64,000 nt of DNA from Acidimicrobiia bacterium (GTDB taxonomy: Bacteria > Actinomycetota > Acidimicrobiia > Acidimicrobiales > SHLQ01): NCBI GenBank assembly GCA_033344795.1, contig JAWPMS010000001.1:2054992-2118991 (forward strand), written 5' to 3'. The position numbers and the translations under genes are program-made. Shown piece after piece: positions 577-35,206 of this stretch. Every line of letters starts with the position of its first letter. Within the stretch, counting starts at the first letter, position 1. Under the pieces are notes generated by a model. The model did no database searches and was not told the origin of the DNA. It worked only from the letters and a program-made list of their open reading frames with translations.

Positions 577-1464
577 ATGGCGTTGCCAACCACCTCGATC
601 GTCATTCGTACGTTGAACGAAGCTGAGCACCTCGGAACGTTGTTCGATTCCATCGACCAACAGGTGCAACAACCGGACGAGATCGTGCTTGTCGACAGCG
701 GGTCGACCGACCAGACCGTCGCCATCGCCGAGGCTCGAGGTGCATCGATCGTGCACATCCCTCCTGGCGAGTTCACCTTCGGGCGAGCGCTGAATTGGGG
801 TTGTGAGGCAGCCAAAGGTGAGGTCCTCGTCTTCGTTTCGGCGCATGTATATGCCCTCCACGAGACGTGGCTGTCGGAGTTGATCGAACCGTTTGCCAAT
901 CCGCAGGTTGGCCTCTCCTACGGCGGACAGACCGGTGACCATCGCAGCAACTTCGCGGAGATCCAGCTCCTGAAGCGCTGGTTTCCAGACGACGGAGGAA
1001 CCCTCGATCAACAGAATCCGTTCTGCAACAACGCGAATTGCGCCGTGCGTAGGACCCTTTGGGAAGACGAACCGTACGACGAGACGCTCACGGGTCTTGA
1101 GGACATGGCGTTCGCTCGACGGATCCGAGCTGCCGGGCATCACATTGCCTATGTGCCGAACGCGAAGATCGCTCACGTCCACGAAGAGGCAGCACGGCAG
1201 ACCTTCAACCGCTACCGACGCGAGGCGATCGCGTATCAGAACATCTTCGGCTCCGAACAGATGGGAATGTCGAGCGCCGCTGGCTTGGCTGCGGCGAGTA
1301 TCACCTCCGACGTGCGGGCCGCAGTGCGACAACGCAAGATCGGTGCGATCCCCTCGGTCGTGTCGTTTCGGGTGGCCCAGTTCGCGGGCGCATGGGCGGG
1401 ACACCGAGACGACCCGTCGGAGTCGCGTCAGATCGTTCGACGCATGTATTACCCGAGAGGGTGA
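577..1464 (+). CDS. glycosyltransferase family 2
   Basis: 295-aa ORF. SIVIRTLNEAEHL...IVLVDSGSTDQT N-terminus and a downstream acidic motif fit the GT-A/GT2 fold. Divergent from the MBOAT gene. Confidence 0.8.
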   Translation: MALPTTSIVIRTLNEAEHLGTLFDSIDQQVQQPDEIVLVDSGSTDQTVAIAEARGASIVHIPPGEFTFGRALNWGCEAAKGEVLVFVSAHVYALHETWLSELIEPFANPQVGLSYGGQTGDHRSNFAEIQLLKRWFPDDGGTLDQQNPFCNNANCAVRRTLWEDEPYDETLTGLEDMAFARRIRAAGHHIAYVPNAKIAHVHEEAARQTFNRYRREAIAYQNIFGSEQMGMSSAAGLAAASITSDVRAAVRQRKIGAIPSVVSFRVAQFAGAWAGHRDDPSESRQIVRRMYYPRG

Positions 1465-18931: not shown

Positions 18932-20479
18932 ATGGTGTTCACCTCGAATCTCCCTGATGTCGAGATCCCCACCGGGATTTCAATCACAGATTTCACCCTG
19001 CGCATGGCCGATGAGCTCGGTGACAAGCCAGCAATCATCGACGGACCTTCGGGGCGGACCCAGAGCTACGCCGAGCTCAAGAGCGGCATTCAGCTACTCG
19101 CCGGAGGTCTCGCAGCGCGAGGCTTCGGCCCAGGACACACGCTCGGGCTGATGGCCCCCAACATTCCTGAGTACGCATCGTTCTTTCATGGCGCGGCCTA
19201 CGCCGGTGGAACGGTCACCACGATCAACCCGACGTACACGGCAGGCGAAGTGCAGCATCAGCTGCATGACTCCGGAGCGTCCATTCTTGTAACCATCTCG
19301 ATGTTCCTCGACGTTGCGCGAGAAGCCGCGGTAGGCACAAAAGTCGAGGAGATCTTCACGATCGACCCGGTCGAAGGCGTTCTCTCGATGTTCGACCTGC
19401 TCTCGAGCCCGCCGCTGACCGAACAGGTTCCGGTTGACACTGACTCGACTCCGGTCGTCCTTCCCTACTCCTCCGGAACGACGGGTCGCAGCAAGGGTGT
19501 TGTCTTGTCGCACGACAACCTGACGGCCAACATCGAGCAGTGCAAACACATGCTCAGCTACGAATCTGACGACGTGGCCCTTGCGATCTTGCCGTTCTTT
19601 CACATCTACGGCATGCAGGTTTTGATGAACGGACTGCTGGCAAACGGCGTCACCATCGTGACGATGCCTCGCTTCGATCTCGAAGAGGCGCTGACCATCG
19701 TGCAAGAGCACAAGGTCTCGTGGTTCTTCGCCGTTCCTCCGATTGTTCTCGCGCTCGCCAAGCACCCACTTGTGGATCAATACGACATGTCGTCGATCAA
19801 GGTGATCTTCTCCGGAGCGGCGCCGTTGTCCGGTGAACTGGGTGAGGAGGCCGCAACACGTCTCGGCTGCGATGTCATTCAGGGGTATGGCATGACCGAG
19901 CTTTCGCCGGTGTCGCACGCGACGATTCCCGGTGAGGGAAAGGCCGGCTCCTCGGGCATCACCGTTTCGAACACCGAGTGCCGAATCGTGGACCCCGAAG
20001 GGAACGATCTGTCGGTTGATGAGGATGGTGAGTTGTGGATTCGCGGCCCGCAGGTCATGAAGGGTTACCTCAACAACCAGCAAGCCACCGATGACACCAT
20101 CGACGCCGACGGGTGGCTGCACACCGGTGACGTCGCGCACTTCGATGAGGACGGCTTCATATACATCGTCGATCGCATCAAGGAGCTCATCAAGTACAAG
20201 GGATTCCAAGTTCCCCCTGCGGAGCTCGAGGGCCTGCTCTTGACGCACCCCGCCGTGGCCGATGCAGCGGTGATTGGCATTCCCGATGACGAAGCCGGCG
20301 AGATCCCCAAGGCCTTCATCACGCTGAAGCCTGGCGCCGAGGCCACGGCTGAAGAGATCCAAGAGTTCGTGGCATCGGACGTCGCGTCCTACAAGCAAGT
20401 ACGTCTGCTCGAGTTCATCGATGCGATCCCCAAGTCGGCTTCGGGCAAAATTCTTCGCCGAGAACTACGCGACCGATGA
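18932..20479 (+). CDS. AMP-dependent acyl-CoA synthetase/ligase (4-coumarate-CoA ligase / FadD-like)
   Basis: 515 aa. AMP-binding motif LPYSSGTTGRSKGVVLSH, GYGMTE, WLHTGD and the C-terminal SASGKILRR lysine motif are present. Confidence 0.9.
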   Translation: MVFTSNLPDVEIPTGISITDFTLRMADELGDKPAIIDGPSGRTQSYAELKSGIQLLAGGLAARGFGPGHTLGLMAPNIPEYASFFHGAAYAGGTVTTINPTYTAGEVQHQLHDSGASILVTISMFLDVAREAAVGTKVEEIFTIDPVEGVLSMFDLLSSPPLTEQVPVDTDSTPVVLPYSSGTTGRSKGVVLSHDNLTANIEQCKHMLSYESDDVALAILPFFHIYGMQVLMNGLLANGVTIVTMPRFDLEEALTIVQEHKVSWFFAVPPIVLALAKHPLVDQYDMSSIKVIFSGAAPLSGELGEEAATRLGCDVIQGYGMTELSPVSHATIPGEGKAGSSGITVSNTECRIVDPEGNDLSVDEDGELWIRGPQVMKGYLNNQQATDDTIDADGWLHTGDVAHFDEDGFIYIVDRIKELIKYKGFQVPPAELEGLLLTHPAVADAAVIGIPDDEAGEIPKAFITLKPGAEATAEEIQEFVASDVASYKQVRLLEFIDAIPKSASGKILRRELRDR

Positions 20480-20501
20480 CCGCAGCCTTGCGTCCTACGC
20501 A

Positions 20502-22187
20502 ATGACCACGGAGACGCCGTCAACCGAAGCGGTCGAGTTGCTCCGCGCCGAACTCGGCACCATCGACCTAGGCCTCGATCTTCCCGGAAGCGAAGAGGCC
20601 AGGCGAGAGCGCACAGAACTGATCGACCAGATCGACGACTACCTCTTGCCGCGGTTACGGCGCCTCGACGCGCCACTGCTGGCGGTACTCGGTGGCTCGA
20701 CCGGCGCAGGTAAGTCGACGATCACGAACAGTCTTGTTGGCGCGGACGTCACCCCGGCTGGCGTGCTACGCCCAACAACTCGCGCCCCCGTGCTCGTCTG
20801 TCATCCCGAAGATCTCGCATGGTTCCAGGACCCGGAGGGGGTGCTGCCAGGGCTGCCTCGGTCGAGCGGCGAAACGGCAGTCGGCACGACCGGGCTCCGT
20901 GTGATCACTTCGTCTCACCTCGAGCCGGGGCTCGCGATACTTGACGCGCCCGACATCGACTCTGTCGAGGTCGCGAATCACGACCTCGCCGCACAGTTGC
21001 TCGGAGCTGCTGACCTCTGGTTGTTCGTGACCACGGCAGCCCGATATGCAGATGCCGTTCCGTGGGAATACCTGGCGTTGGCCCAGGAGCGGTCGGCGGC
21101 GCTTGCCATCGTCATCAACCGAATCCCACCCGGTTCTGAAGACGAGGTAGCCGACCACTTCGGAGCGATGCTGCTCGAGCGCGGCCTCGGCGCCACCACC
21201 GTGTTTCGCGTGTCCGAAGGCGAGCTCATCGAGGGCCGAATCGGTGCAGAATTGGAGCCCGCTCGCGAGTGGCTCCGATCGTTGGCCGAAAACGCGGGCC
21301 AACGGCAAGAATTGGTACGTTCAACGCTCGCTGGCGCAATCTCCTCGATTCCCGACCGAGTCGAACGAGTGGCCGCCGCTCTCGACCTACAGGAAGAGCG
21401 GATCGAAGCGCTTCGCGATGTTGCGTCGCGCCGCTATGCCAGAGCGCTCGTGGACATCGATCTCGAACTCGATCGAGGGACGTTGTTGCGAGGTGAGGTG
21501 CTCGATCAATGGCGTGAGTTCGTTGGCACCGGAGCGCTCATGTCCACGCTCGAAGCCGGTGTCAGTCGAGTCCGTGACACGATCCGTAGCGTATTTCGGT
21601 CGGGCCCTACACCAGATCAACAAGCTGCGGGTCAGCTCGAATCAAACCTCGTGATCGTCACCCGTGACGCTGTCGATCGCGCTGCCATTGACGTCGTCGA
21701 GCAGTGGGATGGGCGTCCGGGAGGACAACAAGCCCTCGGCAGCGCCCCGAGAGGCATCGAGCGGGCGGGCAAGCAGCTCACCCCTCGCATCGAACATGAA
21801 CTCGCTGCGTGGGAGGAGTACGTCCTCGACCTCGTCCGCGAGGAGTCTGGCGACAAGATCACGTTGGCGCGCACGCTCTCGACCGGCATCAATGGTGTCG
21901 GAGTGGCCCTGATGATCGCGGTGTTCAGTCAGACGGGTGGGATCACCGGGGGAGAAGCGGCAGTCGCCACTGGAACCGCTGCCGTATCGCAGGCGGTGTT
22001 GACCGCCGTGTTTGGTGAGCAGGCGGTGCGAGACCTCGCCCGCAACGCTCGCGCCGACTTGATCTCACGCCTCGAACGGCTGCTTCACGAAGATCTCGAA
22101 CGATTTGAAGCGTTGCTCGGGGACGCGAGTGCATCGGGCGACGCCCTTCGAGGTCGCGCGGACGACCTCCGCCGGGCGATCGGATAG
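20502..22187 (+). CDS. dynamin-like / YfjP-type GTPase family protein (partner 1)
   Basis: The P-loop GGSTGAGKST is followed by DAPDID (G3-like). A long helical C-terminal region carries a glycine/alanine-rich hydrophobic patch. The start was moved to ATG 20502, after the ligase stop. Confidence 0.75.
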   Translation: MTTETPSTEAVELLRAELGTIDLGLDLPGSEEARRERTELIDQIDDYLLPRLRRLDAPLLAVLGGSTGAGKSTITNSLVGADVTPAGVLRPTTRAPVLVCHPEDLAWFQDPEGVLPGLPRSSGETAVGTTGLRVITSSHLEPGLAILDAPDIDSVEVANHDLAAQLLGAADLWLFVTTAARYADAVPWEYLALAQERSAALAIVINRIPPGSEDEVADHFGAMLLERGLGATTVFRVSEGELIEGRIGAELEPAREWLRSLAENAGQRQELVRSTLAGAISSIPDRVERVAAALDLQEERIEALRDVASRRYARALVDIDLELDRGTLLRGEVLDQWREFVGTGALMSTLEAGVSRVRDTIRSVFRSGPTPDQQAAGQLESNLVIVTRDAVDRAAIDVVEQWDGRPGGQQALGSAPRGIERAGKQLTPRIEHELAAWEEYVLDLVREESGDKITLARTLSTGINGVGVALMIAVFSQTGGITGGEAAVATGTAAVSQAVLTAVFGEQAVRDLARNARADLISRLERLLHEDLERFEALLGDASASGDALRGRADDLRRAIG

Positions 22188-22190
22188 TCC

Positions 22191-23744
22191 GTGGACGCTG
22201 CCGTCAACTCGGAGTTGATCAACCGGCTCGAGGCTTTGGACGAGGCTCGCGAGATAGCGGCCAGGTACTTCGATGAAGAAACGGTCTCGGATCTGGACCA
22301 GGTCCGAGCGAAGGTTCGAGCGCGCCTTCGGCACGGCACGGAGCACACGGTTGTCGCAATCGCCGGCGCGACGGGTTCTGGCAAGTCGAGCATCGTGAAT
22401 CGACTCGCGGACGCGCAGCTCAGCGAAGCCTCGGTTCGAAGACCGACGACATCCTCGACCCACGCGGTCGTGTGGGGCGATCAGGACGCTGGGCCGCTCC
22501 TCGACTGGCTCGAGGTGTCGCGACGTCATCGGGTGTCGGACGGCGATGAGGATCTTGCGGGCCTGGTCCTCCTCGACCTGCCCGACCACGACTCGACCGC
22601 AGTAGAGCACCGAATCGAGGTCGACCGGCTGGTCGAACTCGTCGACATTTTGGTCTGGGTGACAGACCCGCAGAAGTATGCCGATGCGGCACTTCATCTC
22701 GGGTACATCCAGCCGCTCGCCAATCATGCCGGGATGCTCCGCTTCGCGCTCAACCAGGTCGATCGACTCGACGACGGGGGAGCGAAGATCTCGGCGGACT
22801 TCGCCAGGCTCTTGCGCGAAGACGGCATCGAGAACGCCTCGGTCCTGTCGATCTCGGCGGCTACGGGTCAAGGGTTCGATGACCTCCGTGCCGTGCTTCG
22901 TGATGCGGTCGAGGCCCGTACGGCCTCGTTGGTTCATGCGCATGCTGATCTGGTCGACGCCAGCAGTCTTTTGGCTACCACCGGCTCGCTCAACGACTCG
23001 AAGAAGTCTGTCGGTGATCTGGTCGAAGGACTGTCGGAGGCTGCTGGTTCGGTGGATGCTGCGACGGTCGCCGAACGGCACCACCGTCGCCAAGGAAGTT
23101 TGGCGATGGGATGGCCGTTCACGAGGTTCCTCCGTCGCCTTGCTCGCAAGCCGCTCGCGGATTTGCCAGGGCCGGGTCGATCGAGTGCTGCGGCTCCGCG
23201 AGCTGACGTAGCGCTTCGTGACTTTGCCGAGCAGGTTGCTGGTGACTCGACAGCGCCGTGGCCGAACGCGCTTCGGTCAGCGGTCGGCGCTCAACGTGAT
23301 GAGTTGCTCGATGACCTTCGCCGTGTCGTTGGACGCGAGACGGTAAAGGCCGGGGAGCGACCCCGTTGGTGGACGGCGGTGGCGTGGCTTCAGCGCCTTT
23401 TCGCAATTACAGCGATCGTTGGACTCGGTTGGTTGCTCGTCGTTGCGATTCTCGGCGGATTCTTCCAAATCGCCACCGACCCGCTGCTCCCCCCGACGCC
23501 CGAGGCCGAATGGATGCCACTGCCCTCGGCACTTCTGCTTGGCGGTGTCGTCGCTGGACTGATTGTGGGGTTGCTTGTCCGTTTGCCGTTGTCGGTCGGT
23601 GCGCGACGTCGAGGTCGGCGCGCTCGAAAGGCCATCGAACGCCAGGTGCAAGAACATGCAGAGACGCGGGTCATCGCTCCCGTCACGGCAGTTGTTGAAG
23701 ACCACGCCACGCTCGACTCGCTGCGACGCAAGGCTGCCGGCTGA
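22191..23744 (+). CDS. dynamin-like / YfjP-type GTPase family protein with two C-terminal TM helices (partner 2)
   Basis: GTG start 3 nt after the partner-1 stop. P-loop AGATGSGKSS, DLPDHD and NQVD (G4-like) are present. The hydrophobic segments are WWTAVAWLQRLFAITAIVGLGWLLVVAILGGFF and LPSALLLGGVVAGLIVGLLV. Confidence 0.75.
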   Translation: MDAAVNSELINRLEALDEAREIAARYFDEETVSDLDQVRAKVRARLRHGTEHTVVAIAGATGSGKSSIVNRLADAQLSEASVRRPTTSSTHAVVWGDQDAGPLLDWLEVSRRHRVSDGDEDLAGLVLLDLPDHDSTAVEHRIEVDRLVELVDILVWVTDPQKYADAALHLGYIQPLANHAGMLRFALNQVDRLDDGGAKISADFARLLREDGIENASVLSISAATGQGFDDLRAVLRDAVEARTASLVHAHADLVDASSLLATTGSLNDSKKSVGDLVEGLSEAAGSVDAATVAERHHRRQGSLAMGWPFTRFLRRLARKPLADLPGPGRSSAAAPRADVALRDFAEQVAGDSTAPWPNALRSAVGAQRDELLDDLRRVVGRETVKAGERPRWWTAVAWLQRLFAITAIVGLGWLLVVAILGGFFQIATDPLLPPTPEAEWMPLPSALLLGGVVAGLIVGLLVRLPLSVGARRRGRRARKAIERQVQEHAETRVIAPVTAVVEDHATLDSLRRKAAG

Positions 23745-26774: not shown

Positions 26775-27534
26775 CCTGTCGATCATCATCCCGGCGTTCA
26801 ACGAAGCGGAACGAATTGGTGAAACCCTCGACTCGATCGCCGCGTTCTTGGTCGAACGAAATCTCGACGACGAGGTGATCGTCGTCGACGACGGATCGTC
26901 CGACGACACCATTGCCGTTGTCGAGTCGTATCGCCCAAAGTTCCGCCGGCTCGTCGTGCTCGACTCTCCACGCAATCTTGGGAAGGGCCACGCGGTCCGG
27001 AAAGGGATGTTGACGGGAACGGGTCGACAGCGTTTGTTCCTCGATGCGGACAACTCGACCGATGTACGTGAGTTCGATCGACTGATGGCCGCCGCTGCGA
27101 ACGAACCGATAGAGCCGGCCGTGGTCATCGGCTCGGTCGCGGTGAACGGATCTGTCGTGGCCATCAAACAGCCCGGCATTCGAGCCACCCTGGGTCGCAT
27201 CGGCAACCGGATCATTCAACGACTCGTTCTCCCCGGAATCGAGGACACCCAACGCGGATTCAAGGTCTTCACCGGCGAAGCGAGCGACGCCGTCTTTCGA
27301 CGATGCACCAGCAATGGGTGGGCGTTCGATGTGGAGGCACTAGCTCTGGCTCAAGGTCTGGGGTATCACATTCTTGAGGTTCCAGTGACGTGGGAGCATC
27401 GTGAGGACTCTCGCGTGAAGACCGGTGCGTACTTCACTGCGCTGCTCGACGTTGCCCGCATCAAGGTGCGAGTCCAGAAACAACTGCGTGAGTCCGGAGC
27501 GGTAGTGTCCCAGGATGCAACCGCCGCCAAGTGA
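26767..27534 (+). CDS. GT2 polyprenol-phosphate glycosyltransferase (dolichyl-phosphate glucosyl/mannosyl-transferase-like)
   Basis: MRDLSIIIPAFNEAERI...VIVVDDGSSDDT...NLGKGHAV...LDADN. ATG 26767 overlaps the GT87 stop by 8 nt (ATGCGTGA). Confidence 0.85.
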   Translation: MRDLSIIIPAFNEAERIGETLDSIAAFLVERNLDDEVIVVDDGSSDDTIAVVESYRPKFRRLVVLDSPRNLGKGHAVRKGMLTGTGRQRLFLDADNSTDVREFDRLMAAAANEPIEPAVVIGSVAVNGSVVAIKQPGIRATLGRIGNRIIQRLVLPGIEDTQRGFKVFTGEASDAVFRRCTSNGWAFDVEALALAQGLGYHILEVPVTWEHREDSRVKTGAYFTALLDVARIKVRVQKQLRESGAVVSQDATAAK

Positions 27535-28738
27535 CACAACGAACGTCTCGATAGAGACGATTCGGACTGCACGCGCCCGCATCGAAGACACCATCATCTG
27601 CACGCCGTTCGCGCAATCGATCACCCTTTCGTCGATCGTGGGTGCTGACGTCTTCTTGAAGTTCGAGAACCTCCAATACACCGGTTCGTTCAAGGGTCGT
27701 GGCGCACGAAATCGTTTGCTCGATGTTGAGAACGGTCGGGGTGTAATTGCGATGTCGGCTGGAAATCACGCGCAAGGAGTCGCCCACCACGGCTCGTTGC
27801 TCGGCCTCGAGACGACCATCGTGATGCCGGCCAACACCCCCTTCGTCAAAGTGGCCAGAACCCGTGATCTCGGTGCCAAGGTCGAGCTCGTTGGTCACGA
27901 TGTCATGGAGTCGGCAGTCCGGGCGCGCGAGCTGGCGGTTGAACGTGACCTGGAGTTCATTCACCCGTTCGACGATCCTGCGGTCATCAGCGGCCAAGGA
28001 ACGATGTTCCTCGAGATGCTGGAAGCCGAGCCGGATCTCGACATCATCCTGGTTGCCGTAGGTGGCGGTGGGCTTGCCTCTGGAGCGGCGGTCGTGGCTG
28101 CGCATCACCACACCCCCGTGCAGGTGATCGGTGTGCAGACCGAGCGATATCCCTCGATGGCCGATCGGCTCGAATCGCGGCCGTCGACCGCGATCGGCGG
28201 CTCGACGATCGCCGATGGCATCGCGGTCTCAGAACCCGGCGAGATCACGAGCGCGATACTCGCCGAACACCATGTTGAGATGCTCGTCGTGAGCGAGGCC
28301 GCGATCGAACAAGCCATCGCCATGTTGCTCGAAATCGAAAAGACCGTCGTTGAGGGCGCGGGCGCCGCAGGACTCGCCGCGATGATGGAATACCCGGATG
28401 TCTTCGCTGGCAAGAAGGTCGGCGTCGTCCTGTGCGGTGGCAACATCGATCCACGGACGTTGTCGATCGTGACCTTGCGCGGCCTCGCAAACCAGGGTCG
28501 TCTCAGCCGGATTCGAGTTGAGCTCGATGACACTCCAGGACGCCTCTCGTTGGTCTCTGAAGTCATTGCGGCCGCGGCAGCGAACGTGGTTCAGGTCGAT
28601 CACGACGGGTTGGGCTCGACGGGAGCGCGAAGCACCGTTCTCGAGCTACGCATCGACACGCTCGACAGTGACCACGCGCAACGGGTGCTCGAAGCCTTGC
28701 GAAGCCACGACCTCCGAGCCGACCTGCTCGACTGGTAG
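27515..28738 (+). CDS. ilvA: threonine ammonia-lyase (threonine dehydratase), ~400-aa form with C-terminal regulatory domain
   Basis: The PLP-lysine motif is FLKFENLQYTGSFKGRGA and the glycine loop is GGGGLASG. The ACT-like tail is RIRVELDDTPGRL. Confidence 0.88.
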   Translation: MQPPPSDTTNVSIETIRTARARIEDTIICTPFAQSITLSSIVGADVFLKFENLQYTGSFKGRGARNRLLDVENGRGVIAMSAGNHAQGVAHHGSLLGLETTIVMPANTPFVKVARTRDLGAKVELVGHDVMESAVRARELAVERDLEFIHPFDDPAVISGQGTMFLEMLEAEPDLDIILVAVGGGGLASGAAVVAAHHHTPVQVIGVQTERYPSMADRLESRPSTAIGGSTIADGIAVSEPGEITSAILAEHHVEMLVVSEAAIEQAIAMLLEIEKTVVEGAGAAGLAAMMEYPDVFAGKKVGVVLCGGNIDPRTLSIVTLRGLANQGRLSRIRVELDDTPGRLSLVSEVIAAAAANVVQVDHDGLGSTGARSTVLELRIDTLDSDHAQRVLEALRSHDLRADLLDW

Positions 28739-28797: not shown

Positions 28798-29358
28798 TTA
28801 GGGCAGGCGGCCGACGTAGGCGAGTGCCCGGCGGACGAGCTTCTCGTGCCCTGGCGACAGCTCGGCGGCGACGGTTGGACTCGTGACCTCGTCCGGTCGG
28901 AGCCACACCAAGTCGAGTGCGTCCTGGCTTGGCTCACAGTCGCCTTCGATGGGAACGACATAGGCCAAGCTCACCGCATGTTGGCGCGGATCATGGAACC
29001 CGGTGATGTCCGGATTCGGGAAGTACTCGATCACCGTGAATGGCTGTGGCGACGCTGGGATCTGCGGTAGCGCGAGCGGGCCGAGATCCTTCTCGAGATG
29101 CCGGAGCAGCGCGTCGCGCACCCTCTCGCCGTACAGGATTCGTCCGGAGACCACCTCGCGGTTGACGTCACCATCGGCGCCGAGGCGTAGGAGCAGACCA
29201 ATGTGCGTCACGATGCCGAGATCATCGGTGATGACCGGGATGGCATTGATGTAGATGACGGGCATCTTGCCGCGCATCGTGGCAAGGTCGTCTTCGGAAA
29301 GCCAGTTGCTCTGGGTTTCGGTGATGTCGCTCATGCGTGCTCCTCGGCGGCGCGCCAA
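28798..29358 (-). CDS. NUDIX-fold DUF4916-like protein
   Basis: 186 aa. The pattern NWLSEDDLA...PVIYINAIPV...HIGLLLR...HDPRQHAVSLAYVVP matches my recollection of the actinobacterial DUF4916/Nudix-like family. An alternative start is ATG 29334. Confidence 0.6.
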   Translation of the reverse strand: MARRRGARMSDITETQSNWLSEDDLATMRGKMPVIYINAIPVITDDLGIVTHIGLLLRLGADGDVNREVVSGRILYGERVRDALLRHLEKDLGPLALPQIPASPQPFTVIEYFPNPDITGFHDPRQHAVSLAYVVPIEGDCEPSQDALDLVWLRPDEVTSPTVAAELSPGHEKLVRRALAYVGRLP

Positions 29359-29454
29359 ACGGTTCGTCGCTCAGCAACAGAGATCGTAGACGGTGGGGTG
29401 GGTCGACCAGAGCGACCTCCCGAACGTTGACTGTTGTAGCTCGCACTCGTCTGG

Positions 29455-29489
29455 GACGGGAGTTCGACGTTCTTCGTCGAACTCCCGTC
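29455..29489 (-). terminator. perfect 15-bp stem / 5-nt loop hairpin 10 nt after the stop of the Sec-peroxiredoxin-like gene
   Basis: Plus strand reads GACGGGAGTTCGACG-TTCTT-CGTCGAACTCCCGTC. There is no U tract, as is common in GC-rich genomes. Confidence 0.6.
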
Positions 29490-29499
29490 TCAGTGACGA

Positions 29500-29982
29500 C
29501 TATGCCAGCTTCTTGCGCTCGAAGAGCACCTTGCGAATGATGTCGCTGGCGGTGAAACGGCCGATCGGTCCGGTGGAGTAGAGCGACTGTGCGATCTCCC
29601 CATCGGGGTTGATCAGGAAGGCCGTTCCGTGCAAGAAGACCTTGTCGCCGTCCTGGTACGCGGCTCCTGTATCGGCAGAGACCGTCGGCGCGTCGAGCTC
29701 TCCCCACATCGGGAAACCGACATAGAGCCCAGATCGGAGTGCCTGTACCTTTTCGACCGGATCTACGGAGCCACCGACCACCTTGATGCCGAGCTCCATG
29801 AGGGGAAGTCCATGCGTTGCGAAGTCAACCAACTGTTGACGGCAATATGGTCACCAGTCACCTCGGTAGAGCAGCACCGCCGCCCAGGATCCGGCGACTG
29901 AAGCGACCATGTCGCCGGCTTCGCCGTCGTGGTTCACTCCCATGATCGGGGGGAGCTTCGTCCCATTCTCGAGAATATGCAT
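29500..29982 (-). CDS. peroxiredoxin-like (AhpC/TSA, PRX-like2) protein with in-frame TGA (29853..29851) at the first Cys of the WCPxC motif; candidate selenoprotein (Sec44)
   Basis: Hand translation of the minus frame: MHILENGTKLPPIMGVNHDGEAGDMVASVAGSWAAVLLYRGDW-TGA-PYCRQQLVDFATHGLPLMELGIKVVGGSVD... The frame is continuous with track ORF 29500..29832, which only starts at an internal TTG. An upstream in-frame stop lies near 30070. Confidence 0.75.
29818..29844 (-). other. bacterial SECIS-like stem-loop immediately downstream of the in-frame UGA
   Basis: The RNA reads UGA-CCAUAU-UGC-C-GUCAAC-AGUUG-GUUGAC-UUC-GCA. The perfect 6-bp upper stem begins 11 nt after UGA, the 5-nt apical loop contains GU, and UGC/GCA forms a lower stem. 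Confidence 0.6.
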
Positions 29983-30031: not shown

Positions 30032-31600
30032 ATGACGGAGAACCCTGATCTTCGTTCCGTTCGCGTGGAAATCGATGCTCAGCTGGATGCCACTCCGACT
30101 GCGGACCCCCCACTCGTTCACGGTGGGCCGAGAGGAGCGAAACGAGGTGCGATCATCGCCATTCTTGGAGTCGGTTTCGTCGGGCTCTTGCTTGTACTCG
30201 CCGAACGCGAGTCCGCGAACGAGGTAGCAGAATCGCCCACGCCGACGACCTCGCCCACCGCAGCCGACGAGTCAAACGATGGTCAATTCGGCACACCGTT
30301 GTCTGGGCCGACCGAGTTGTTCCAGCCGACAAGCGGTGCCTCGCAACTGCAGTCCGTGGTTCGAGTTTCTTCCGGCTTCCTTGGCCTGACCCGTAACCAA
30401 GATTCGGACGGGATGCCGGTCATTGTGCAATCCGTCGATGGCATCGATTGGAGCGAGGTCAACACCGTGTTCGACGACTCGCTCCCCGAACGCAGCGCCG
30501 AATTGCCCCCAGCGATCTTCGAGGGTCTCGTTCAGACGGACGAAGGACTTGCGTTGCTCCGAAGAACGACCGAGATGAGCGCCGAGGACGACGCCTCAAG
30601 GACAATCTCACGCATCCTGAGGTTGCGCTCGTCCGATGGTGTCACATGGAGCGTCGATCCCAACTTTGCGCCATTCGACTCTGCAGGTGGATCAACCCGC
30701 GTCGTTGCTCACGTTGCCGGTTCGTTCGTGGCCAGTACCCAGAGGCCGATCGAGAACCCGTTGCTGCAGGAGCTCCTCGAAGGAGAGGTCGACGATGTGT
30801 TGCTCTCAACAGCGTTCTGTTCGGTCGAGCCGCAAACGGACGGACAACTGCGCTTCATTGCCTGCAGTGGAGCCGAGGCCCTCATCCTCACTGCGGCCGA
30901 CGCGAATGATCCTGCCCGGTTCGAACTCCTTGGCCAATGTGCGGTGTTCCTCAGCCAGCGATGGGCTGGCGAGTCATCGTTCTGGGTGGTCCAGAGCGGT
31001 AGTGGTGTTGCCGAGCTGGCTGGTGCGAATTCGCTCCTGTTCCCCCCGTCGGTTGCCGAGGACGGGCGAATCGTGGCGATCGACTTCCCGAGCCCTCCAA
31101 CGACCGGCGAACTGGCGTGCGACTACTTCATCGACGTCCAACCGTCGCCATCTCCAGCGGTCGGGGTCTGGGATCCGCAAAATTCTGCGCAACCGGTCCG
31201 ACACCCCATCCCTGAAGGGATTGACGTGTCGAGTCTGCTGTCGGTGCGAGCCGAGCCGACGATCTCGCGCGCAGGCCTACTGGTGCTGATCGGCTCCGGG
31301 CTCACCTCGATCGATCTCACATCGATCGATCTGGATTCTGGGGTGTGGGAGGACGTCTTGACGCTCCCCGTGCGCCCCGATGACGAGACCTCGGTGCAGA
31401 TCACCGCGGATGGATCGCGACTGATCTACCTGGACTCCTCGAGAATCACCGTCATCCAGCTCGACACGAGGATGACGGGATACCTCGAGAGCGCAGGTGG
31501 CAACCGGCCCGGTTTCCCACAGATCATCTATGCAGACAACGGCGTGGTCTTTGCCAGAGGCGCGAATTCGACCTTCAAGATCGATGTGCCGACCAGCTAA
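30032..31600 (+). CDS. hypothetical single-pass membrane protein with large extracytoplasmic domain
   Basis: 522 aa. An N-terminal cytoplasmic segment is followed by the TM helix AIIAILGVGFVGLLLVLA and a Pro/Thr-rich linker. I recognise no family. Confidence 0.6.
   Translation: MTENPDLRSVRVEIDAQLDATPTADPPLVHGGPRGAKRGAIIAILGVGFVGLLLVLAERESANEVAESPTPTTSPTAADESNDGQFGTPLSGPTELFQPTSGASQLQSVVRVSSGFLGLTRNQDSDGMPVIVQSVDGIDWSEVNTVFDDSLPERSAELPPAIFEGLVQTDEGLALLRRTTEMSAEDDASRTISRILRLRSSDGVTWSVDPNFAPFDSAGGSTRVVAHVAGSFVASTQRPIENPLLQELLEGEVDDVLLSTAFCSVEPQTDGQLRFIACSGAEALILTAADANDPARFELLGQCAVFLSQRWAGESSFWVVQSGSGVAELAGANSLLFPPSVAEDGRIVAIDFPSPPTTGELACDYFIDVQPSPSPAVGVWDPQNSAQPVRHPIPEGIDVSSLLSVRAEPTISRAGLLVLIGSGLTSIDLTSIDLDSGVWEDVLTLPVRPDDETSVQITADGSRLIYLDSSRITVIQLDTRMTGYLESAGGNRPGFPQIIYADNGVVFARGANSTFKIDVPTS
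31301..31330 (+). repeat. 15-bp tandem duplication (1 mismatch) inside the CDS, encoding LTSID-LTSID
   Basis: CTCACCTCGATCGAT / CTCACATCGATCGAT, read directly. Confidence 0.85.
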
Positions 31601-31609
31601 TCGGCCGAC

Positions 31610-32392
31610 CTAGACGCTCTGGCCCGACAGATTGCGGTTCTTGATCTTGGCCTTCACGTAGTCGCGGTTCATGAACGCGATGAAGTCGAGGCTGATCTCT
31701 TTCGGGCAGGCCTCGTGGCACTCACCGTGGTTGGTGCACGTACCGAAGAAGTCTTCCATCGTGTCGACCATGTTCTCGGTGCGTTCCCAGCGCTCGGGCT
31801 GACCCTGTGGGAGAAGGTTGAACTGTTGCACCTTTGCCGACGTGAACAACTGGGCGGCCGAGTTGGGACATGCTGCGACACATGCGCCACAGCCAATACA
31901 TGCAGCCGCATCCATTGCGAGGTCGGCTGCGGGCTTTGGCACCGGAATCATGTTGGCATCGGGTGCACTGCCCGTTGCCACCGAGATGAACCCGCCAGCC
32001 TGTTGGATCTTGTCCATCGCGGCACGGCTCACCGCAAGATCCTTGATGACCGGGAACGATGAGGCTCGGAATGGCTCGATGGTGATGTGATCGCCATCGG
32101 CGAATGTCCGCATGTGCAGCTGGCAGGTCGCCTGACCCTTGTTTGGGCCGTGTGCTTGACCGTTGATCATGAGTGAACACGTGCCGCAGATGCCCTCGCG
32201 GCAATCGCTCTCGAAGGTGACCGGCACCTTGTCGTCGTGGATCAAACGTTCGTTCACCACGTCGAGCATCTCGAGGAAGCTCGAATCGGGGCTGATGTCC
32301 TTGGCCTCGTATGTCTCGAAGTGGCCCTTGTCGGTTGGGCCGTTTTGGCGCCAGACCTCGAGGGTGAGGTTGATGTTGTTTTCGTCACTCAT
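31610..32392 (-). CDS. sdhB: succinate dehydrogenase/fumarate reductase iron-sulfur subunit
   Basis: 260 aa with three Cys clusters: CREGICGTC, CIGCGACVAACP and C..HGEC..ACP. Confidence 0.93.
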   Translation of the reverse strand: MSDENNINLTLEVWRQNGPTDKGHFETYEAKDISPDSSFLEMLDVVNERLIHDDKVPVTFESDCREGICGTCSLMINGQAHGPNKGQATCQLHMRTFADGDHITIEPFRASSFPVIKDLAVSRAAMDKIQQAGGFISVATGSAPDANMIPVPKPAADLAMDAAACIGCGACVAACPNSAAQLFTSAKVQQFNLLPQGQPERWERTENMVDTMEDFFGTCTNHGECHEACPKEISLDFIAFMNRDYVKAKIKNRNLSGQSV

Positions 32393-32405
32393 GCTTTTCC
32401 CCGGG

Positions 32406-34355
32406 TCACTTGTAACTGCGCTGGCTCAGCGCGACATGTTCGAATTCGAGTTGCTCTTCGTGTTTGGTCTGTTCGGTGTCGGCACCGTTCCACTCCCACG
32501 CCGCGACATGTTTGAAATTCTCATCGTCGCGGAGGGCCTCGCCCTCTTCGGTCTGTGATTCGACTCGGAAATGGCCGCCGCAAGACTCTTCTCTGACGAG
32601 AGCGTCTCGAGCCTTCAGCTTCGCGAGTTCGAAGAAGTCGGCGACGCGGCCAACCTTTTCGAGTTCGGTGTTCATCGACGTGGCATCACCCTTGACCCGA
32701 ACGTTTTTCTTGAACTCATCCTCGAGCGAGGCAATCTCGGATTGCGCCTTCTCGAGTCCGTTCTTGTCGCGTGCCATGCCGATGCGATCCCAGACGATCT
32801 TGCCGAGTTCTCGGTGGTAGTGCTCTGGCGACTTCGTGCCGTTTACCGACAGCCACATGTTTGTCTGATCGGCAACTTCGGCCTCGGCAGCCTTGAAGAC
32901 CGGATCGTCGGTTGGGACGACGCCCTCTCCGAGCTTGCCGGCGAGGTAGTCGCCAATCGTGTACGGAAGCACGAAGTAGCCGTCGGCGAGCCCCTGCATG
33001 AGCGCCGAGGCACCCAAGCGGTTTGCACCATGGTCGGAGAAGTTGGCCTCGCCGACCGCGTAGGTGCCTGGAATCGTGGTCATCAGGTGGTAGTCGACCC
33101 AGAGCCCACCCATCGTGTAGTGGGTGGCCGGGTAGATGCGCATCGGACGTTCGTACGGGTTCTCGCCGGTGATGTTGGCGTACATGTCGAACAAGTTGCC
33201 GTACTTGGCCTTGATCGTCTCCAAGCCATCTCGTGCGATTGCGTCCTTGAAGTCGAGGAAGACGCCGTTCTTCAGAGGTCCGACGCCCCGGCCTTCGTCG
33301 ACGACGGTCTTTGCGTTTCGTGACGCCACGTCGCGAGGGACGAGGTTTCCGAACGCTGGATACTTGCGCTCGAGGTAGTAGTCGCGCTCAGCTTCGGGGA
33401 TATCGGCAGCCATCCGAGCGTCGTCGAATTCGTTCGGCACCCAGATACGACCGTCGTTTCGGAGCGACTCGGACATGAGGGTCAACTTGGACTGATGATC
33501 CTCCGAAGCCGGAATACACGTCGGGTGAATCTGCGTGTAGCAAGGGTTGGCAAAGAAGGCGCCTCGTCGATGAGCTCGCCATGCGGCGGTCACGTTGCTC
33601 ATCATCGCGTTCGTCGAGAGGTAGTAGATGTTGCCGTACCCGCCGGTTGCGAGCACCACCGCGTGCGCAGAGTGCGATTCGACTTCGCCGGTCAGTAGAT
33701 CGCGGGTGATGATTCCCGCTGTTTCACCGTCTTTGGTGACGACGTCGAGCATTTCCTTGCGGTTGTGCATTTCGACCGCGCCGCTGGCGATCTGACGGTT
33801 GAGCGCCGAGTACGCACCGAGCAACAGCTGCTGTCCGGTCTGACCTCGTGCATAGAAGGTGCGAGAGACCTGAGCACCGCCGAAGGACCGGTTGTCGAGC
33901 AGGCCGCCGTAGTCGCGAGCAAAGGGAACACCTTGGGCAACGCACTGATCGATGATGTTGACCGAGACCTCGGCCAGCCGATGCACGTTGGCCTCGCGGG
34001 AGCGGTAGTCGCCGCCTTTGACCGTGTCATAGAAAAGACGGTGAACCGAGTCACCATCGTTGGGGTAGTTCTTTGCGGCGTTGATGCCGCCCTGCGCGGC
34101 GATCGAGTGCGCGCGGCGCGGGCTGTCGTGGAAGGTGAACGCTTTCACCTTGTAGCCAAGCTCGGCCATCGTGGCCGCAGCGGAGGCACCAGCGAGCCCC
34201 GTGCCGACGACGATGACGGTGAACTTGCGCTTGTTGCTCGGGTTCACCAACTTCATCGAGAACTTGTGGTTCTCCCACAGGGTGGCGATGTCTCCCTCAG
34301 GGACTTTCGAGTCGAGCGCTGGGCTCGTGGTTCGGGAGTTCATGGTTGCGGTCAT
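32406..34355 (-). CDS. sdhA: succinate dehydrogenase/fumarate reductase flavoprotein subunit
   Basis: FAD motifs [14 protein letters not shown] and [12 protein letters not shown] are present, with a length of about 649 aa. The start is set at ATG 34355, which overlaps the sdhC stop by 1 nt (TAATG). Confidence 0.93.
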
Positions 34356-35206
34356 TACGCCTCTGCCTTCTCGATCTCGTGCTCGAAGCACTCGAGGGCA
34401 GCAGCCTCGCTACCAGAGCCTTCGCATGGGTTGTCTTCTGGATCGATCACACCAGCTTGAGTGAGGATCGGAAATGTCAGGTTGCCAACAAGGATGACAC
34501 CGGCGAGGCCTGTCGCAAGGATTCTGCGGGCGCTGTTGTACCTCGGGTTGTTGAGCCCAAGGCTCTGGAAGAGCGACCACGTGCCGTGGAAGATATGGAT
34601 GGCCAGAGCAACGTTTGCGACGATGTAAATGATTGCCACCGGCAGGTTCGACAAGCTTGTCGAGAGGTTGTGGTACGGATCGCCACGCACATAGTCGGTG
34701 TGCGGCAAGACGCCCCAAGTCAGATCCGCAAGATGGAAGATCAGGTACAACAAGATGATCGGCCCGGTCCAGCGCATGGTGCGGCTGGCGTAGTTGGCGG
34801 CGACGTAATCACGCCCACCGGGGTAGCTCTTTTGTCCATCGATCCAGTTTGCGTTGTCGCTCGCCTGCCGGCTGATCTCCTTGGTCGTGTATGCCGCCGC
34901 GATGTGCAGACCGAACATTGCGATGAGGCCGAGGCGGAGGATCCAGAGCACCACGTTGCGGGGAAGGATGTGGCCGCCGAGTTCGCGAAGCGCCTCCGCG
35001 TATTCGTGCAATTCGACCGGTCCCTCATAGACGTGGAAGTTGCCGATCATGTGAGCGACGACGAAGCCGAGAAGCCCGATGCCGGTGATCGCCATGATCC
35101 ATTTTCGTCCGACGGCCGACTGCCAGATGTTGAGCGGAAAGGGGAGTGGCTTCTTCCGGGTCCGGATGGGCTGTGGGTCCCGAAGATTGGGCATTGTCTG
35201 CGCCAT
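34355..35206 (-). CDS. sdhC: succinate dehydrogenase membrane anchor / cytochrome b subunit (single-subunit, multi-helix type, Sdh1-like operon order CAB)
   Basis: 283 aa and polytopic, with His residues in TM helices. It is the first gene of a C-A-B operon and has an AGGAG RBS. Confidence 0.8.

What the first reader, a model, noticed from the sequence alone, without database searches (positions are those of the whole stretch)
29500..29982. In-frame UGA at the first Cys of a WCPxC redox motif plus a SECIS-like hairpin: candidate selenocysteine peroxiredoxin-like protein
The ORF track shows only a 110-aa fragment (29500..29832, internal TTG). Reading the same minus frame upstream keeps it open back to ATG 29982: MHILENGTKLPPIMGVNHDGEAGDMVASVAGSWAAVLLYRGDW-[TGA 29853..29851]-PYCRQQLVDFATHGLPLMELGIKVVGGSVDP... 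The TGA sits exactly where PRX-like2/AhpC-TSA redoxins carry the first Cys of the (F/Y)RGxWCPxC motif. A protein starting after the TGA would have no active site. Directly downstream the mRNA can fold as UGA-CCAUAUUGCC-GUCAAC-AGUUG-GUUGAC-UUCGCA. That is a perfect 6-bp upper stem beginning 11 nt after UGA, a 5-nt loop containing GU, and a UGC/GCA lower stem. As far as I recall, this spacing and loop content are what the E. coli fdhF-type bacterial SECIS requires. Prx-like proteins are a known bacterial selenoprotein class, so the biology is plausible. The gene would be mis-annotated as truncated or a pseudogene by standard callers. It also implies a Sec-decoding system (selA/selB/selC/selD) elsewhere in the genome; none is in this window.
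Basis: partly seen in the sequence, partly recalled or inferred. Interest (0 to 1): 0.8.

Follow-up and report, generated by a model that had tools for sequence, protein, structure and literature searches.

The report
Selenocysteine Prx-like redox protein gene
This is a real gene for a small thioredoxin-fold redox protein whose active-site residue is selenocysteine, encoded by an in-frame UGA and a conserved RNA hairpin; the family has been known from ocean metagenomes since 2005, so it is a sound but ordinary find that gene callers routinely truncate.

Summary
On the minus strand, ATG 29982 to TAG 29500 is one 160-codon frame broken only by TGA 29853..29851.

- **Protein family.** With U read as C, the product matches Pfam AhpC-TSA end to end (E 3.9e-13).
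- **Conservation of the TGA.** At that column, 65 loci (the window plus related loci) carry TGA and 30 carry TGC/TGT. None carries TAA or TAG.
- **Coding on both sides.** Both flanks are under purifying selection: pN/pS is 0.16 upstream and 0.20 downstream.
- **The hairpin.** GUCAAC-AGUUG-GUUGAC (29840..29824) starts 10 nt after the UGA. It is 97.7% paired in 58 distinct TGA sequences, with compensatory A-U to G-C changes. It is absent from Cys forms that encode the same peptide.
- **Synonymous sites.** All 8 codons over the hairpin are frozen, against 2 of 74 elsewhere (p = 1e-9).
- **Fit to the published model.** The hairpin meets the bacterial SECIS consensus.
- **Sec use in the lineage.** An Acidimicrobiales MAG with a homolog (54% identity) encodes, 9 kb away, an FdhF homolog with TGA at E. 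coli's Sec140 position.

The family is the known "Prx-like 1 / Prx-like thiol:disulfide oxidoreductase" UxxC selenoprotein. The rest of this genome could not be searched for selA/B/C/D. All 76 database homologs are truncated calls.

Verdict: a real selenoprotein gene, and a new member of a known kind.

The parts
29500..29982 (-). Complete selenoprotein gene: 160 codons (ATG 29982; Sec-UGA at codon 44; stop TAG 29502..29500). Thioredoxin-fold Prx-like protein with a U44-P-Y-C47 redox motif.
   Evidence: Translation. Pfam AhpC-TSA 49.9 bits, E 3.9e-13, profile positions 5-123 of 124. Fifteen species-level genome loci match residues 1-158/160 at 78-94% identity.
29854..29982 (-). N-terminal 43 codons upstream of the UGA, missed by ORF callers.
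   Evidence: Conserved as protein with free synonymous change: pS 0.61, pN 0.095, ratio 0.155. Conserved start M[HYF]ILENG, with unconserved sequence and stops before it.
29851..29853 (-). In-frame UGA read as selenocysteine (U44), at the first position of the UxxC motif.
   Evidence: TGA in 65 loci and TGC/TGT in 30 loci at the same column; never TAA or TAG. U44 aligns with the conserved Thr of the peroxiredoxin T-x-x-C motif.
29842..29844 (-). Codon for C47, the second residue of the UxxC motif. It occupies the position of the peroxidatic Cys of peroxiredoxins and is the inferred resolving partner of Sec.
   Evidence: Invariant in all aligned homologs. Aligns with the Cys of 'TPVC' in PDB 5xbs and of AhpC.
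29824..29840 (-). SECIS core: 6-bp stem GUCAAC/GUUGAC with the 5-nt loop AGUUG. The stem starts 10 nt after the UGA, so 16 nt separate the UGA from the loop.
   Evidence: MFE folds. 97.7% paired in 58 distinct TGA sequences; pair 24-32 is A-U in 36 and G-C in 17. Only 52.6% paired in 26 Cys forms. Codons 48-55 are nucleotide-invariant in 16 close relatives: 8/8 against 2/74 elsewhere, p = 1.3e-9.
29810..29850 (-). Extended SECIS fold in this window. Two further short stems, UUGC 29845..29842 with GCAA 29820..29817 and CCAU 29850..29847 with AUGG 29813..29810, lie below the core hairpin.
   Evidence: 46-nt fold -13.5 kcal/mol, z = -2.08. The lower helix is only 64.7% paired across the family, so it is weakly supported.
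29500..29832 (-). The truncated 110-aa ORF (internal TTG) that mechanical ORF calling reports. It lacks both U44 and C47.
   Evidence: ORF list. All 76 database homologs are such 90-115 aa fragments.
29451..29493 (.). 19-nt inverted repeat (95% complementary, 5-nt spacer) starting 7 nt after the stop codon. A likely transcript-end hairpin without a U tract.
   Evidence: the repeat finder I1. Not called by the T-run terminator scan. Function is inferred only.

Best explanation
The region 29982..29500 (minus strand) is a single functional gene for a 160-residue thioredoxin-fold 'Prx-like' thiol/selenol oxidoreductase. Its active site is Sec44-Pro-Tyr-Cys47.

Inferred decoding mechanism. The UGA at 29853..29851 is decoded as selenocysteine. 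The mRNA hairpin GUCAAC-AGUUG-GUUGAC lies inside the coding sequence, 10 nt downstream. It acts as a bacterial SECIS: it binds SelB·GTP·Sec-tRNASec and delivers it to the ribosome when the UGA is in the A site.

Inferred chemistry. Sec44 sits at the N-terminal, nucleophilic position of a thioredoxin-like CxxC motif. It attacks an oxidised substrate (a disulfide, sulfenic acid or peroxide), forms a selenenylsulfide with Cys47, and is re-reduced by a cellular thiol system.

Shown here:
- the gene structure;
- conservation of the UGA;
- Sec/Cys alternation at the same column;
- purifying selection on both sides of the UGA;
- an RNA-level constraint with compensatory change in the hairpin, specific to the UGA forms;
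- Sec use in a related Acidimicrobiales MAG.

Inferred only: the SelB interaction, actual Se incorporation, the substrate and the reductant.
For: - Sequence and frame.
- Full-length match to AhpC-TSA only when the upstream 43 codons are included.
- All 76 protein-database homologs are truncated at the same place.
- TGA in 16 of 16 close genomes (the window plus 15 loci) and in 65 loci overall; TGC/TGT in 30 loci at the same column.
- Full-length CxxC homologs exist in the representative library.
- pN/pS is 0.155 upstream and 0.20 downstream.
- Codons 48-55 are frozen at synonymous sites, 8/8 against 2/74, p = 1.3e-9.
- The upper helix is 97.7% paired, with A-U to G-C (17 sequences) and G-C/G-U/A-U variation.
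- The same columns are only 52.6% paired in Cys forms encoding the same CRQQLxDF peptide.
- The hairpin meets the consensus bSECIS limits quoted in PMC13188914. Loop 5 nt (limit 3-9). Stem 6 bp (4-16). G at loop position 2. 16 nt from UGA to loop (16-37). MFE -9.7 to -13.5 kcal/mol (limit -7.5 or lower).
- TGA ends 29 of 54 long ORFs in the window, so it is not reassigned genome-wide.
- Locus L030 is an Acidimicrobiales MAG holding a homolog of this protein (54% identity). It encodes, 9 kb away, a molybdopterin formate-dehydrogenase homolog (38% identity to E. coli FdhF, E 2e-148). Its in-frame TGA aligns with FdhF Sec140. Its downstream hairpin has the same design: a 6-bp stem and the 5-nt loop GGUCU. 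The source's gene call reads through that TGA.
- The GOS 'Prx-like 1' selenoprotein set contains YRGHWUPYCRRQL...YSSGPIGR reads that are homologous to this protein (31% identity, E 8e-25).
Against: - No selA, selB, selD or tRNA-Sec was found in the 64-kb window or in 755 kb of related loci. The rest of this genome could not be searched.
- No Rfam family matches the hairpin. This is expected, because Rfam holds no general bacterial SECIS model.
- The hairpin is small, and its stability over shuffles depends on the stretch folded: z = -0.35 for 66 nt and -2.1 for 46 nt.
- Within the closest 16 genomes the hairpin is invariant. Covariation therefore comes only from more distant homologs and rests mainly on one pair (24-32) with two haplotypes, which may reflect few evolutionary events.
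- Five sequences (CAC, His at codon 49) break one or two pairs in the fixed register.
- No experimental evidence of Se incorporation exists for this protein.
Confidence: 0.93

Rival explanations
1. Pseudogene or truncated gene. The TGA is a true stop produced by mutation. At most the 110-aa fragment from TTG 29832 is made, and it has no active site.
For: ORF callers and all public annotations report only the fragment. No Sec machinery is seen in the window.
Against: The same TGA at the same column occurs in 65 loci spanning about 35-97% protein identity, and no other stop type or frameshift appears. The upstream 43 codons are under purifying selection (pN/pS 0.155). The hairpin is conserved at synonymous sites. 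Decay would give scattered lesions.
Confidence: 0.01
2. The UGA is recoded, but not as selenocysteine. For example, the hairpin stimulates near-cognate read-through (Trp, Cys or Arg), or Cys is inserted through the Sec-tRNA pathway when selenium is scarce.
For: The comparative data show recoding and an RNA signal but do not identify the inserted residue. UGA-C is a weak termination context, and all 58 distinct sequences have UGA CC.
Against: The UGA alternates only with Cys codons, at a redox-active CxxC position. This is the signature of Sec/Cys pairs. The hairpin fits the SelB-type bSECIS model. It resembles the hairpin after the Sec codon of an FdhF homolog in a related MAG. The family is already catalogued as a selenoprotein.
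Confidence: 0.04
3. Two separate products: a 43-residue peptide that terminates at the UGA, and an independently initiated C-terminal domain. The hairpin would then be a regulatory or coupling element.
For: A TTG/GTG lies shortly after the hairpin in many homologs, and gene callers use it.
Against: The Pfam domain spans the junction (profile positions 5-123). The C-terminal piece would lack both redox residues. Cys homologs are single continuous proteins. The start codons used by callers fall at different places (query coverage 56-69%).
Confidence: 0.01

Closest known systems
Prx-like 1 / 'Prx-like thiol:disulfide oxidoreductase' selenoprotein family. Sources: Zhang et al. 2005, Sargasso Sea, PMC1088965; Zhang & Gladyshev 2008, GOS, PMC2398784; listed in the 2026 review PMC13188914 as PF00578, UxxC.
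   Same: Both have the PF00578 domain and a thioredoxin-like UxxC motif with Sec first. Both have many Cys homologs and are abundant in marine samples. GOS reads such as YRGHWUPYCRRQL...YSSGPIGR align over the whole protein (31% identity, E 8e-25).
   Different: This sequence belongs to a sub-branch (…WUPYCRQQLVDF…STGPIGRFT…) found mostly in contigs labelled Acidimicrobiales. That exact motif was not found in the stored part of the GOS dataset, and the file was cut when stored. No NCBIfam model reaches its cut-off, so current annotation pipelines truncate the gene.
Canonical peroxiredoxins (AhpC, BCP/PrxQ, archaeal Prx; PDB 5xbs, 5uka and others), and the Sec-containing Prx with a TxxU motif.
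   Same: Same fold and Pfam family. C47 aligns with the peroxidatic Cys.
   Different: The conserved Thr of T-x-x-C is replaced by Sec. The catalytic Arg is not matched in the AhpC alignment: G119 aligns with it and the neighbouring H118 is conserved. Scores are far below every NCBIfam peroxiredoxin cut-off (29.8 against 272 bits). In Sec-Prx the Sec replaces the peroxidatic Cys (TxxU). Here it is the other position (UxxC), as PMC1088965 notes.
E. coli fdhF SECIS, the reference bacterial Sec insertion element.
   Same: A hairpin inside the ORF just after the UGA. The spacer is 10 nt here and 11 nt in fdhF. Both have a short upper stem and a small loop with G-U at loop positions 2-3: AGUUG here, and GGUC within AGGUCU in fdhF.
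   Different: This hairpin has no bulged U in the 5' arm: it is a perfect 6-bp stem, whereas fdhF has 6 nt against 5 nt (GGUUGC/GCACC). The loop sequence differs. Binding to SelB was not tested.
Sec-containing FdhF homolog of the Acidimicrobiales MAG GCA_051011555.1 (locus L030, TGA at 950..952).
   Same: It lies on the same contig as a homolog of this protein (54% identity). It has an in-frame TGA followed by a 6-bp stem and a 5-nt loop, GGUCU, with G-U at loop positions 2-3.
   Different: It is a different protein family (molybdopterin oxidoreductase). The spacer is 12 nt instead of 10. The lower stems are stronger (-20.7 kcal/mol).

Membership tests
Bacterial selenoprotein gene (comparative criteria used in the metagenome selenoproteome surveys PMC1088965 and PMC2398784) | In-frame UGA conserved among orthologs, with coding conservation on both sides | tested here: met
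   TGA in 65 loci. pN/pS is 0.155 upstream and 0.20 downstream.
Bacterial selenoprotein gene (comparative criteria used in the metagenome selenoproteome surveys PMC1088965 and PMC2398784) | Cys-containing homologs with Cys aligned to the UGA | tested here: met
   30 loci carry TGC/TGT at the same column. Full-length homologs with YRGxWC(P/R)xC.
Bacterial selenoprotein gene (comparative criteria used in the metagenome selenoproteome surveys PMC1088965 and PMC2398784) | bSECIS consensus model (PMC13188914): 3-9 nt loop, 4-16 bp upper stem, G in the first two loop positions, 16-37 nt from UGA to loop, MFE -7.5 kcal/mol or lower | tested here: met
   Loop AGUUG is 5 nt with G at position 2. Stem is 6 bp. 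16 nt from UGA to loop, which is the lower limit. MFE is -9.7 (39 nt) and -13.5 (46 nt) kcal/mol. The bSECISearch program itself was not run.
Bacterial selenoprotein gene (comparative criteria used in the metagenome selenoproteome surveys PMC1088965 and PMC2398784) | Hairpin maintained by selection: compensatory change, and absence from the Cys forms | tested here: met
   97.7% paired, with A-U in 36 and G-C in 17 sequences at one pair. 52.6% paired in Cys forms. Synonymous freeze, p = 1.3e-9.
Bacterial selenoprotein gene (comparative criteria used in the metagenome selenoproteome surveys PMC1088965 and PMC2398784) | [quoted passage not shown] | not testable with these tools
   None in the window or in 755 kb of related loci, and the rest of the genome is not available. 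Indirect support: a Sec-FdhF homolog lies on the same contig as a homolog of this protein in an Acidimicrobiales MAG. Actinomarina, in the same class, has selA/B/C/D (bioRxiv 10.64898/2026.04.03.716425).
Bacterial selenoprotein gene (comparative criteria used in the metagenome selenoproteome surveys PMC1088965 and PMC2398784) | Selenium actually incorporated at the UGA | not testable with these tools
   Requires 75Se labelling or mass spectrometry.
Prx-like 1 / Prx-like thiol:disulfide oxidoreductase selenoprotein family | PF00578 (AhpC/TSA) domain | tested here: met
   49.9 bits against a cut-off of 26, E 3.9e-13, profile positions 5-123 of 124.
Prx-like 1 / Prx-like thiol:disulfide oxidoreductase selenoprotein family | Thioredoxin-like UxxC motif, with Sec first, in place of the Prx TxxC/TxxU motif | tested here: met
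   W-U-P-Y-C. U44 aligns with the Prx Thr and C47 with the peroxidatic Cys.
Prx-like 1 / Prx-like thiol:disulfide oxidoreductase selenoprotein family | Sequence homology to published family members | tested here: met
   31% identity over 152 residues, E 8e-25, to a GOS 'Prx-like 1' read (JCVI_READ_1093018630248) from Dataset S1 of PMC2398784.
Canonical peroxiredoxin (AhpC / BCP / Prx) | Catalytic triad: the conserved Thr/Ser of T-x-x-C, the peroxidatic Cys, and a conserved Arg | tested here: not met
   Thr is replaced by Sec. In the AhpC alignment the Arg aligns with G119. Only the Cys position is kept. The Arg assignment rests on one pairwise alignment.
Canonical peroxiredoxin (AhpC / BCP / Prx) | Score above the NCBIfam equivalog cut-offs | tested here: not met
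   The best match is TIGR03137 AhpC, 29.8 bits against a cut-off of 272.
E. coli fdhF-type SECIS | Upper stem-loop about 11 nt after the UGA, with G-U in the apical loop | tested here: met
   10-nt spacer against 11 in fdhF. Loop AGUUG against AGGUCU.
E. coli fdhF-type SECIS | Bulged U in the 5' arm of the upper stem | tested here: not met
   Perfect 6-bp stem with no bulge. In fdhF the arms are GGUUGC and GCACC. That the bulged U matters for SelB binding is from my own knowledge of the E. coli literature.

The most novel reading that the evidence does not exclude
In this Acidimicrobiales-centred branch of the Prx-like family, Sec may be the ancestral and dominant state, with the sampled Cys forms making one derived clade.

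The 17-nt SECIS core has been held almost unchanged across proteins as low as about 35% identical. It is either invariant or changed by compensatory pairs. It even restricts residue 52 to Val or Ala (GUU/GCU), whereas the Cys forms use Leu, Ile, Val, Met, Thr or Ser there.

This would mark a widespread, un-annotated Sec-decoding trait in high-GC marine Acidimicrobiales that current pipelines miss, since they have no NCBIfam model for the family.
Probability: 0.4. Interest if true: 0.4.

Novelty: new member of a known kind. Interest (0 to 1): 0.3.

Why it matters
- **Annotation.** The gene is systematically mis-annotated. All 76 database relatives are 90-115 aa fragments lacking the active site, and no NCBIfam model covers the family. 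A curated model with a Sec exception would repair the truncated calls seen here (all 76 database relatives) and any others like them.
- **Biology.** The gene flags its host, a high-GC bacterium most likely of the order Acidimicrobiales, as a selenium user. This agrees with the known enrichment of Sec use in marine microbes.
- **Teaching value.** The Sec and Cys sister sets give a clean natural example of an RNA signal written into synonymous sites of an otherwise identical peptide.

It does not change what is known about selenoproteins. The family, the motif and the SECIS design are all established.

Tried and rejected
- **Rfam.** At gathering threshold there are no hits in the window. At E up to 10 around the gene, the only hits are chance miRNA matches to the downstream inverted repeat.
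- **tRNA search.** ARAGORN found no tRNA-Sec in the window or in any locus.
- **Sec machinery by tblastn.** E. coli SelA, SelB and SelD were fetched and searched against the window plus 755 kb of loci. Nothing was found except a weak SelB match at 22647..23018. That match lies in the second ORF (22191..23744, no Pfam hit) of a pair whose first ORF (20421..22187) matches Dynamin_N.
- **Second selenoprotein, GC3 filter.** A scan for other in-frame TGA candidates using a GC3 filter was uninformative. It did not even recover the true gene.
- **Second selenoprotein, clustering.** Redox-motif TGA contexts were clustered across all loci. Only the Prx-like family recurs as a plausible protein; the other clusters are out-of-frame artefacts.
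- **Source of the window.** An exact-protein look-up of a neighbouring window gene found nothing on record.
- **Promoter and terminator scan.** Nothing was found.
- **Literature.** No paper in the library links high-GC Acidimicrobiales with selenocysteine. Only the Actinomarina preprint, on the same class, does so.
- **Genome-wide reassignment of TGA.** Considered and rejected, because TGA ends 29 of 54 long ORFs.
Full report
**1. Observation.**
On the minus strand the frame that starts at ATG 29982 runs to TAG 29502..29500. It is interrupted once, by TGA at 29853..29851. The translation is MHILENG...LLYRGDW-[TGA]-PYCRQQLVDFATHG...ERKKLA.

Mechanical ORF listing gives only 29500..29832, 110 aa, from an internal TTG. 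With U read as C, the 160-residue product matches Pfam AhpC-TSA over profile positions 5-123 of 124 (49.9 bits, E 3.9e-13). The domain therefore needs the 43 upstream codons.

**2. Conservation of the UGA and of both flanks.**
A search of 5.8 billion proteins returned 76 relatives (43-97% identity). Every one is a 90-115 aa fragment covering only the C-terminal 56-69% of the query. The named ones are 'hypothetical protein' entries from Acidimicrobiales MAGs.

Fetching the DNA shows why.
- In 15 species-representative genomes, tblastn matches residues 1-158/160 at 78-94% identity, and codon 44 is TGA in every one. Thirteen are labelled Acidimicrobiales.
- The same holds in more distant genomic homologs: L027 (59%), L030 (54%) and L028 (43%).
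- A metagenome scan added 80 loci. Overall, 65 loci have TGA and 30 have TGC/TGT at this column. None has TAA, TAG or a frameshift.
- HMMER against 1.84 billion cluster representatives gives the same picture. It finds a mix of truncated calls of about 110 aa and full-length proteins of 156-177 aa carrying YRGxWC(P/R)xC.

Among the 15 closest ungapped sequences, the N-terminal segment has pS 0.61 and pN 0.095 (ratio 0.155). This is the same regime as the C-terminal part, where the ratio is 0.20. The start M[HYF]ILENG is conserved, and the sequence before it is unconserved and contains stops. This excludes a pseudogene and a sequencing error.

**3. The hairpin is an RNA-level element tied to the UGA.**
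In the 16 close sequences, codons 48-55 (CGT CAA CAG TTG GTT GAC TTC GCA) are identical at every nucleotide. Almost every other codon varies. Among amino-acid-invariant degenerate codons, 8 of 8 in this stretch are single-codon against 2 of 74 elsewhere (Fisher p = 1.3e-9).

Across 58 distinct TGA-form sequences, the 6-bp helix (alignment columns 20-25 with 31-36) is 97.7% paired. Pair 24-32 is A-U in 36 sequences and G-C in 17. That change couples a synonymous CAA-to-CAG (Gln) change with GUU (Val) to GCU (Ala). Pair 20-36 is G-C in 49, G-U in 8 and A-U in 1. The loop is AGUUG or AGUUA throughout.

The 26 distinct Cys-form sequences encode nearly the same peptide (C-R-Q-Q-L-[LIVM]-D-F in most). 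They use other codons and pair at only 52.6% of these cells. Their 39-nt folds are mostly -2 to -7 kcal/mol, against about -7 to -18 for the TGA forms. The hairpin is therefore not a by-product of the protein sequence.

Five sequences with His at codon 49 (CAC) break one or two pairs of the fixed register, and ViennaRNA shifts them to a 4-nt loop with a bulge.

**4. Fit to the bacterial SECIS model.**
The 2026 review quotes these consensus constraints (PMC13188914): an apical loop of 3-9 nt; an upper stem of 4-16 bp; a G in the first two loop positions, usually followed by G or U; 16-37 nt between the UGA and the loop; and an MFE of -7.5 kcal/mol or lower.

| Criterion | Limit | This hairpin |
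|---|---|---|
| Apical loop | 3-9 nt | 5 nt (A-G-U-U-G) |
| Upper stem | 4-16 bp | 6 bp |
| G in first two loop positions | required | G at position 2, followed by U |
| UGA to loop | 16-37 nt | 16 nt (the lower limit) |
| MFE | -7.5 kcal/mol or lower | -9.7 (39 nt); -13.5 (46 nt) |

The 46-nt fold has z = -2.1. A 66-nt stretch gave z = -0.35, so thermodynamics alone would not have been convincing.

For comparison, the E. coli fdhF element read from NC_000913 is UGA-CACGGCCCAUC-GGUUGC-AGGUCU-GCACC. Its spacer is 11 nt against 10 here, and its loop also has G-U. It has a bulged 5' arm that this hairpin lacks.

**5. Does the lineage decode Sec?**
The window holds no tRNA and no SelA, SelB or SelD. 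The one weak SelB hit, at 22647..23018, lies in the second ORF (22191..23744, no Pfam hit) of a pair whose first ORF (20421..22187) matches Dynamin_N. None was found in 755 kb of related loci either, and the rest of the genome is out of reach.

TGA is the commonest stop of the window's long ORFs (29 of 54), so it is not a general sense codon.

Indirect but specific support comes from locus L030 (NCBI MAG GCA_051011555.1, 'Acidimicrobiales bacterium'; this Prx-like homolog is 54% identical and carries TGA).
- Nine kilobases upstream, the source's own gene call of 676 residues reads through an in-frame TGA at 950..952.
- The product is a molybdopterin oxidoreductase (PF00384, E 5e-73) that is 38% identical to E. 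coli FdhF (E 2e-148).
- Its TGA aligns exactly with FdhF Sec140: CNRT-U-HAPSV against CARV-U-HGPSV.
- The hairpin after it is GUCGUC-GGUCU-GGCGAC, again 6 bp with a 5-nt loop and G-U at loop positions 2-3, 12 nt after the UGA.

A preprint also reports selA/B/C/D in all 84 complete Actinomarina genomes, which belong to the same class, Acidimicrobiia.

**6. What the protein is.**
The best solved-structure matches are peroxiredoxins and AhpC (E about 1e-5). In those alignments C47 falls on the peroxidatic Cys and U44 on the conserved Thr of T-x-x-C. The AhpC catalytic Arg aligns with G119, next to the conserved H118. No NCBIfam peroxiredoxin model comes near its cut-off.

The protein therefore has a thioredoxin-like U-x-x-C centre on a Prx scaffold. 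The most likely chemistry is inferred, not tested: nucleophilic attack by Sec44, a selenenylsulfide with Cys47, and re-reduction by a thiol system. The substrate is unknown.

**7. Context.**
The gene is monocistronic in appearance.
- A 19-nt inverted repeat (29451..29493) starts 7 nt after the stop codon.
- DUF4916/NUDIX (28798..29358, minus strand) lies beyond it, and a PLP-dependent enzyme gene at 27515..28738 (plus strand).
- On the other side lie a divergent 522-aa ORF without Pfam hits (30032..31600, plus strand) and sdhB/sdhA (31610..34391, minus strand).

The neighbourhood is syntenic with L001-L015 at 71-82% nucleotide identity over up to 19 kb. Window G+C is 60-63%.

**8. Comparison with what is known.**
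'Prx-like protein' with a UxxC motif was already a 'previously known' selenoprotein family in the 2005 Sargasso Sea study (22 sequences). In the GOS survey it appears as 'Prx-like 1', pfam00578, UxxC, with 225 selenoproteins in 37 samples and 2,740 Cys homologs. It is listed in the 2026 review as 'Prx-like thiol:disulfide oxidoreductase'.

The GOS sequence file contains reads such as ...LLYRGHWUPYCRRQL...YSSGPIGR.... One of them aligns with this protein over 152 residues (31% identity, E 8e-25). The exact CRQQLVDF sub-branch was not found in the stored, truncated part of that file.

In an NJ tree of 81 full-length conceptual products, the sampled Cys forms make one clade nested among Sec forms. 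Sampling was biased by the search patterns and the root is a midpoint, so the direction of change is only suggestive.

**9. Verdict.**
This is a genuine selenoprotein gene with a conserved, covarying SECIS. It is a new member of a long-known family in a lineage where Sec use is plausible and partly documented.

Its practical value lies in annotation: every public relative found is truncated, and no NCBIfam model exists. The one criterion that could not be met is a direct check of selA/B/C/D in this genome.

Noticed in passing
L030:653-2683 (+), TGA at 950..952: An Acidimicrobiales MAG contig (GCA_051011555.1) carries a formate-dehydrogenase-H homolog with an in-frame TGA aligned to E. coli FdhF Sec140. 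A SECIS-like hairpin, GUCGUC-GGUCU-GGCGAC, follows it. The gene sits next to FTHFS and to NuoF-like and NuoG-N-terminal-like genes, 9 kb from a Prx-like homolog that also carries TGA.
   Followed up: yes
window 29451-29493: A 19-nt inverted repeat (95% complementary, 5-nt spacer) starts 7 nt after the stop codon. It has no T tract, so the terminator scan misses it. Rfam gives only chance miRNA hits to it.
   Followed up: partly
L001 and L002 (JBLIMK010000007.1, CAXMRH010000155.1): These contigs are labelled Verrucomicrobiales and Chthoniobacterales MAGs. They carry the closest homologs (94% and 89% protein identity) and are syntenic with the window and with the contigs labelled Acidimicrobiales. 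They are probably mis-binned or mislabelled.
   Followed up: partly
window 30032-31600 (+): A 522-aa ORF with a coding-like GC pattern by codon position but no Pfam family. It is divergently oriented, 49 bp from the selenoprotein start, and lies between it and sdhB. blastn hits from related loci span this interval.
   Followed up: no
window 20421-23744 (+): Two adjacent large ORFs of 588 and 517 aa. The first matches Dynamin_N, and the second gave a weak tblastn hit to the SelB GTPase domain. Together they look like a bacterial dynamin-like protein pair.
   Followed up: partly
window 37651-38961 (+): A 436-aa ORF matching the Spondin_N domain (E 6.5e-17). I know this domain mainly from animal extracellular-matrix proteins.
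   Followed up: no
L056-L091, L097, L104, L108 (Cys forms) against the TGA forms: Residue 52 is restricted to Val or Ala (GUU/GCU, which pair with AAC/AGC) in the TGA forms. It is Leu, Ile, Val, Met, Thr or Ser in the Cys forms. The SECIS appears to constrain the protein sequence. The sampled Cys forms make a single clade in an NJ tree.
   Followed up: partly
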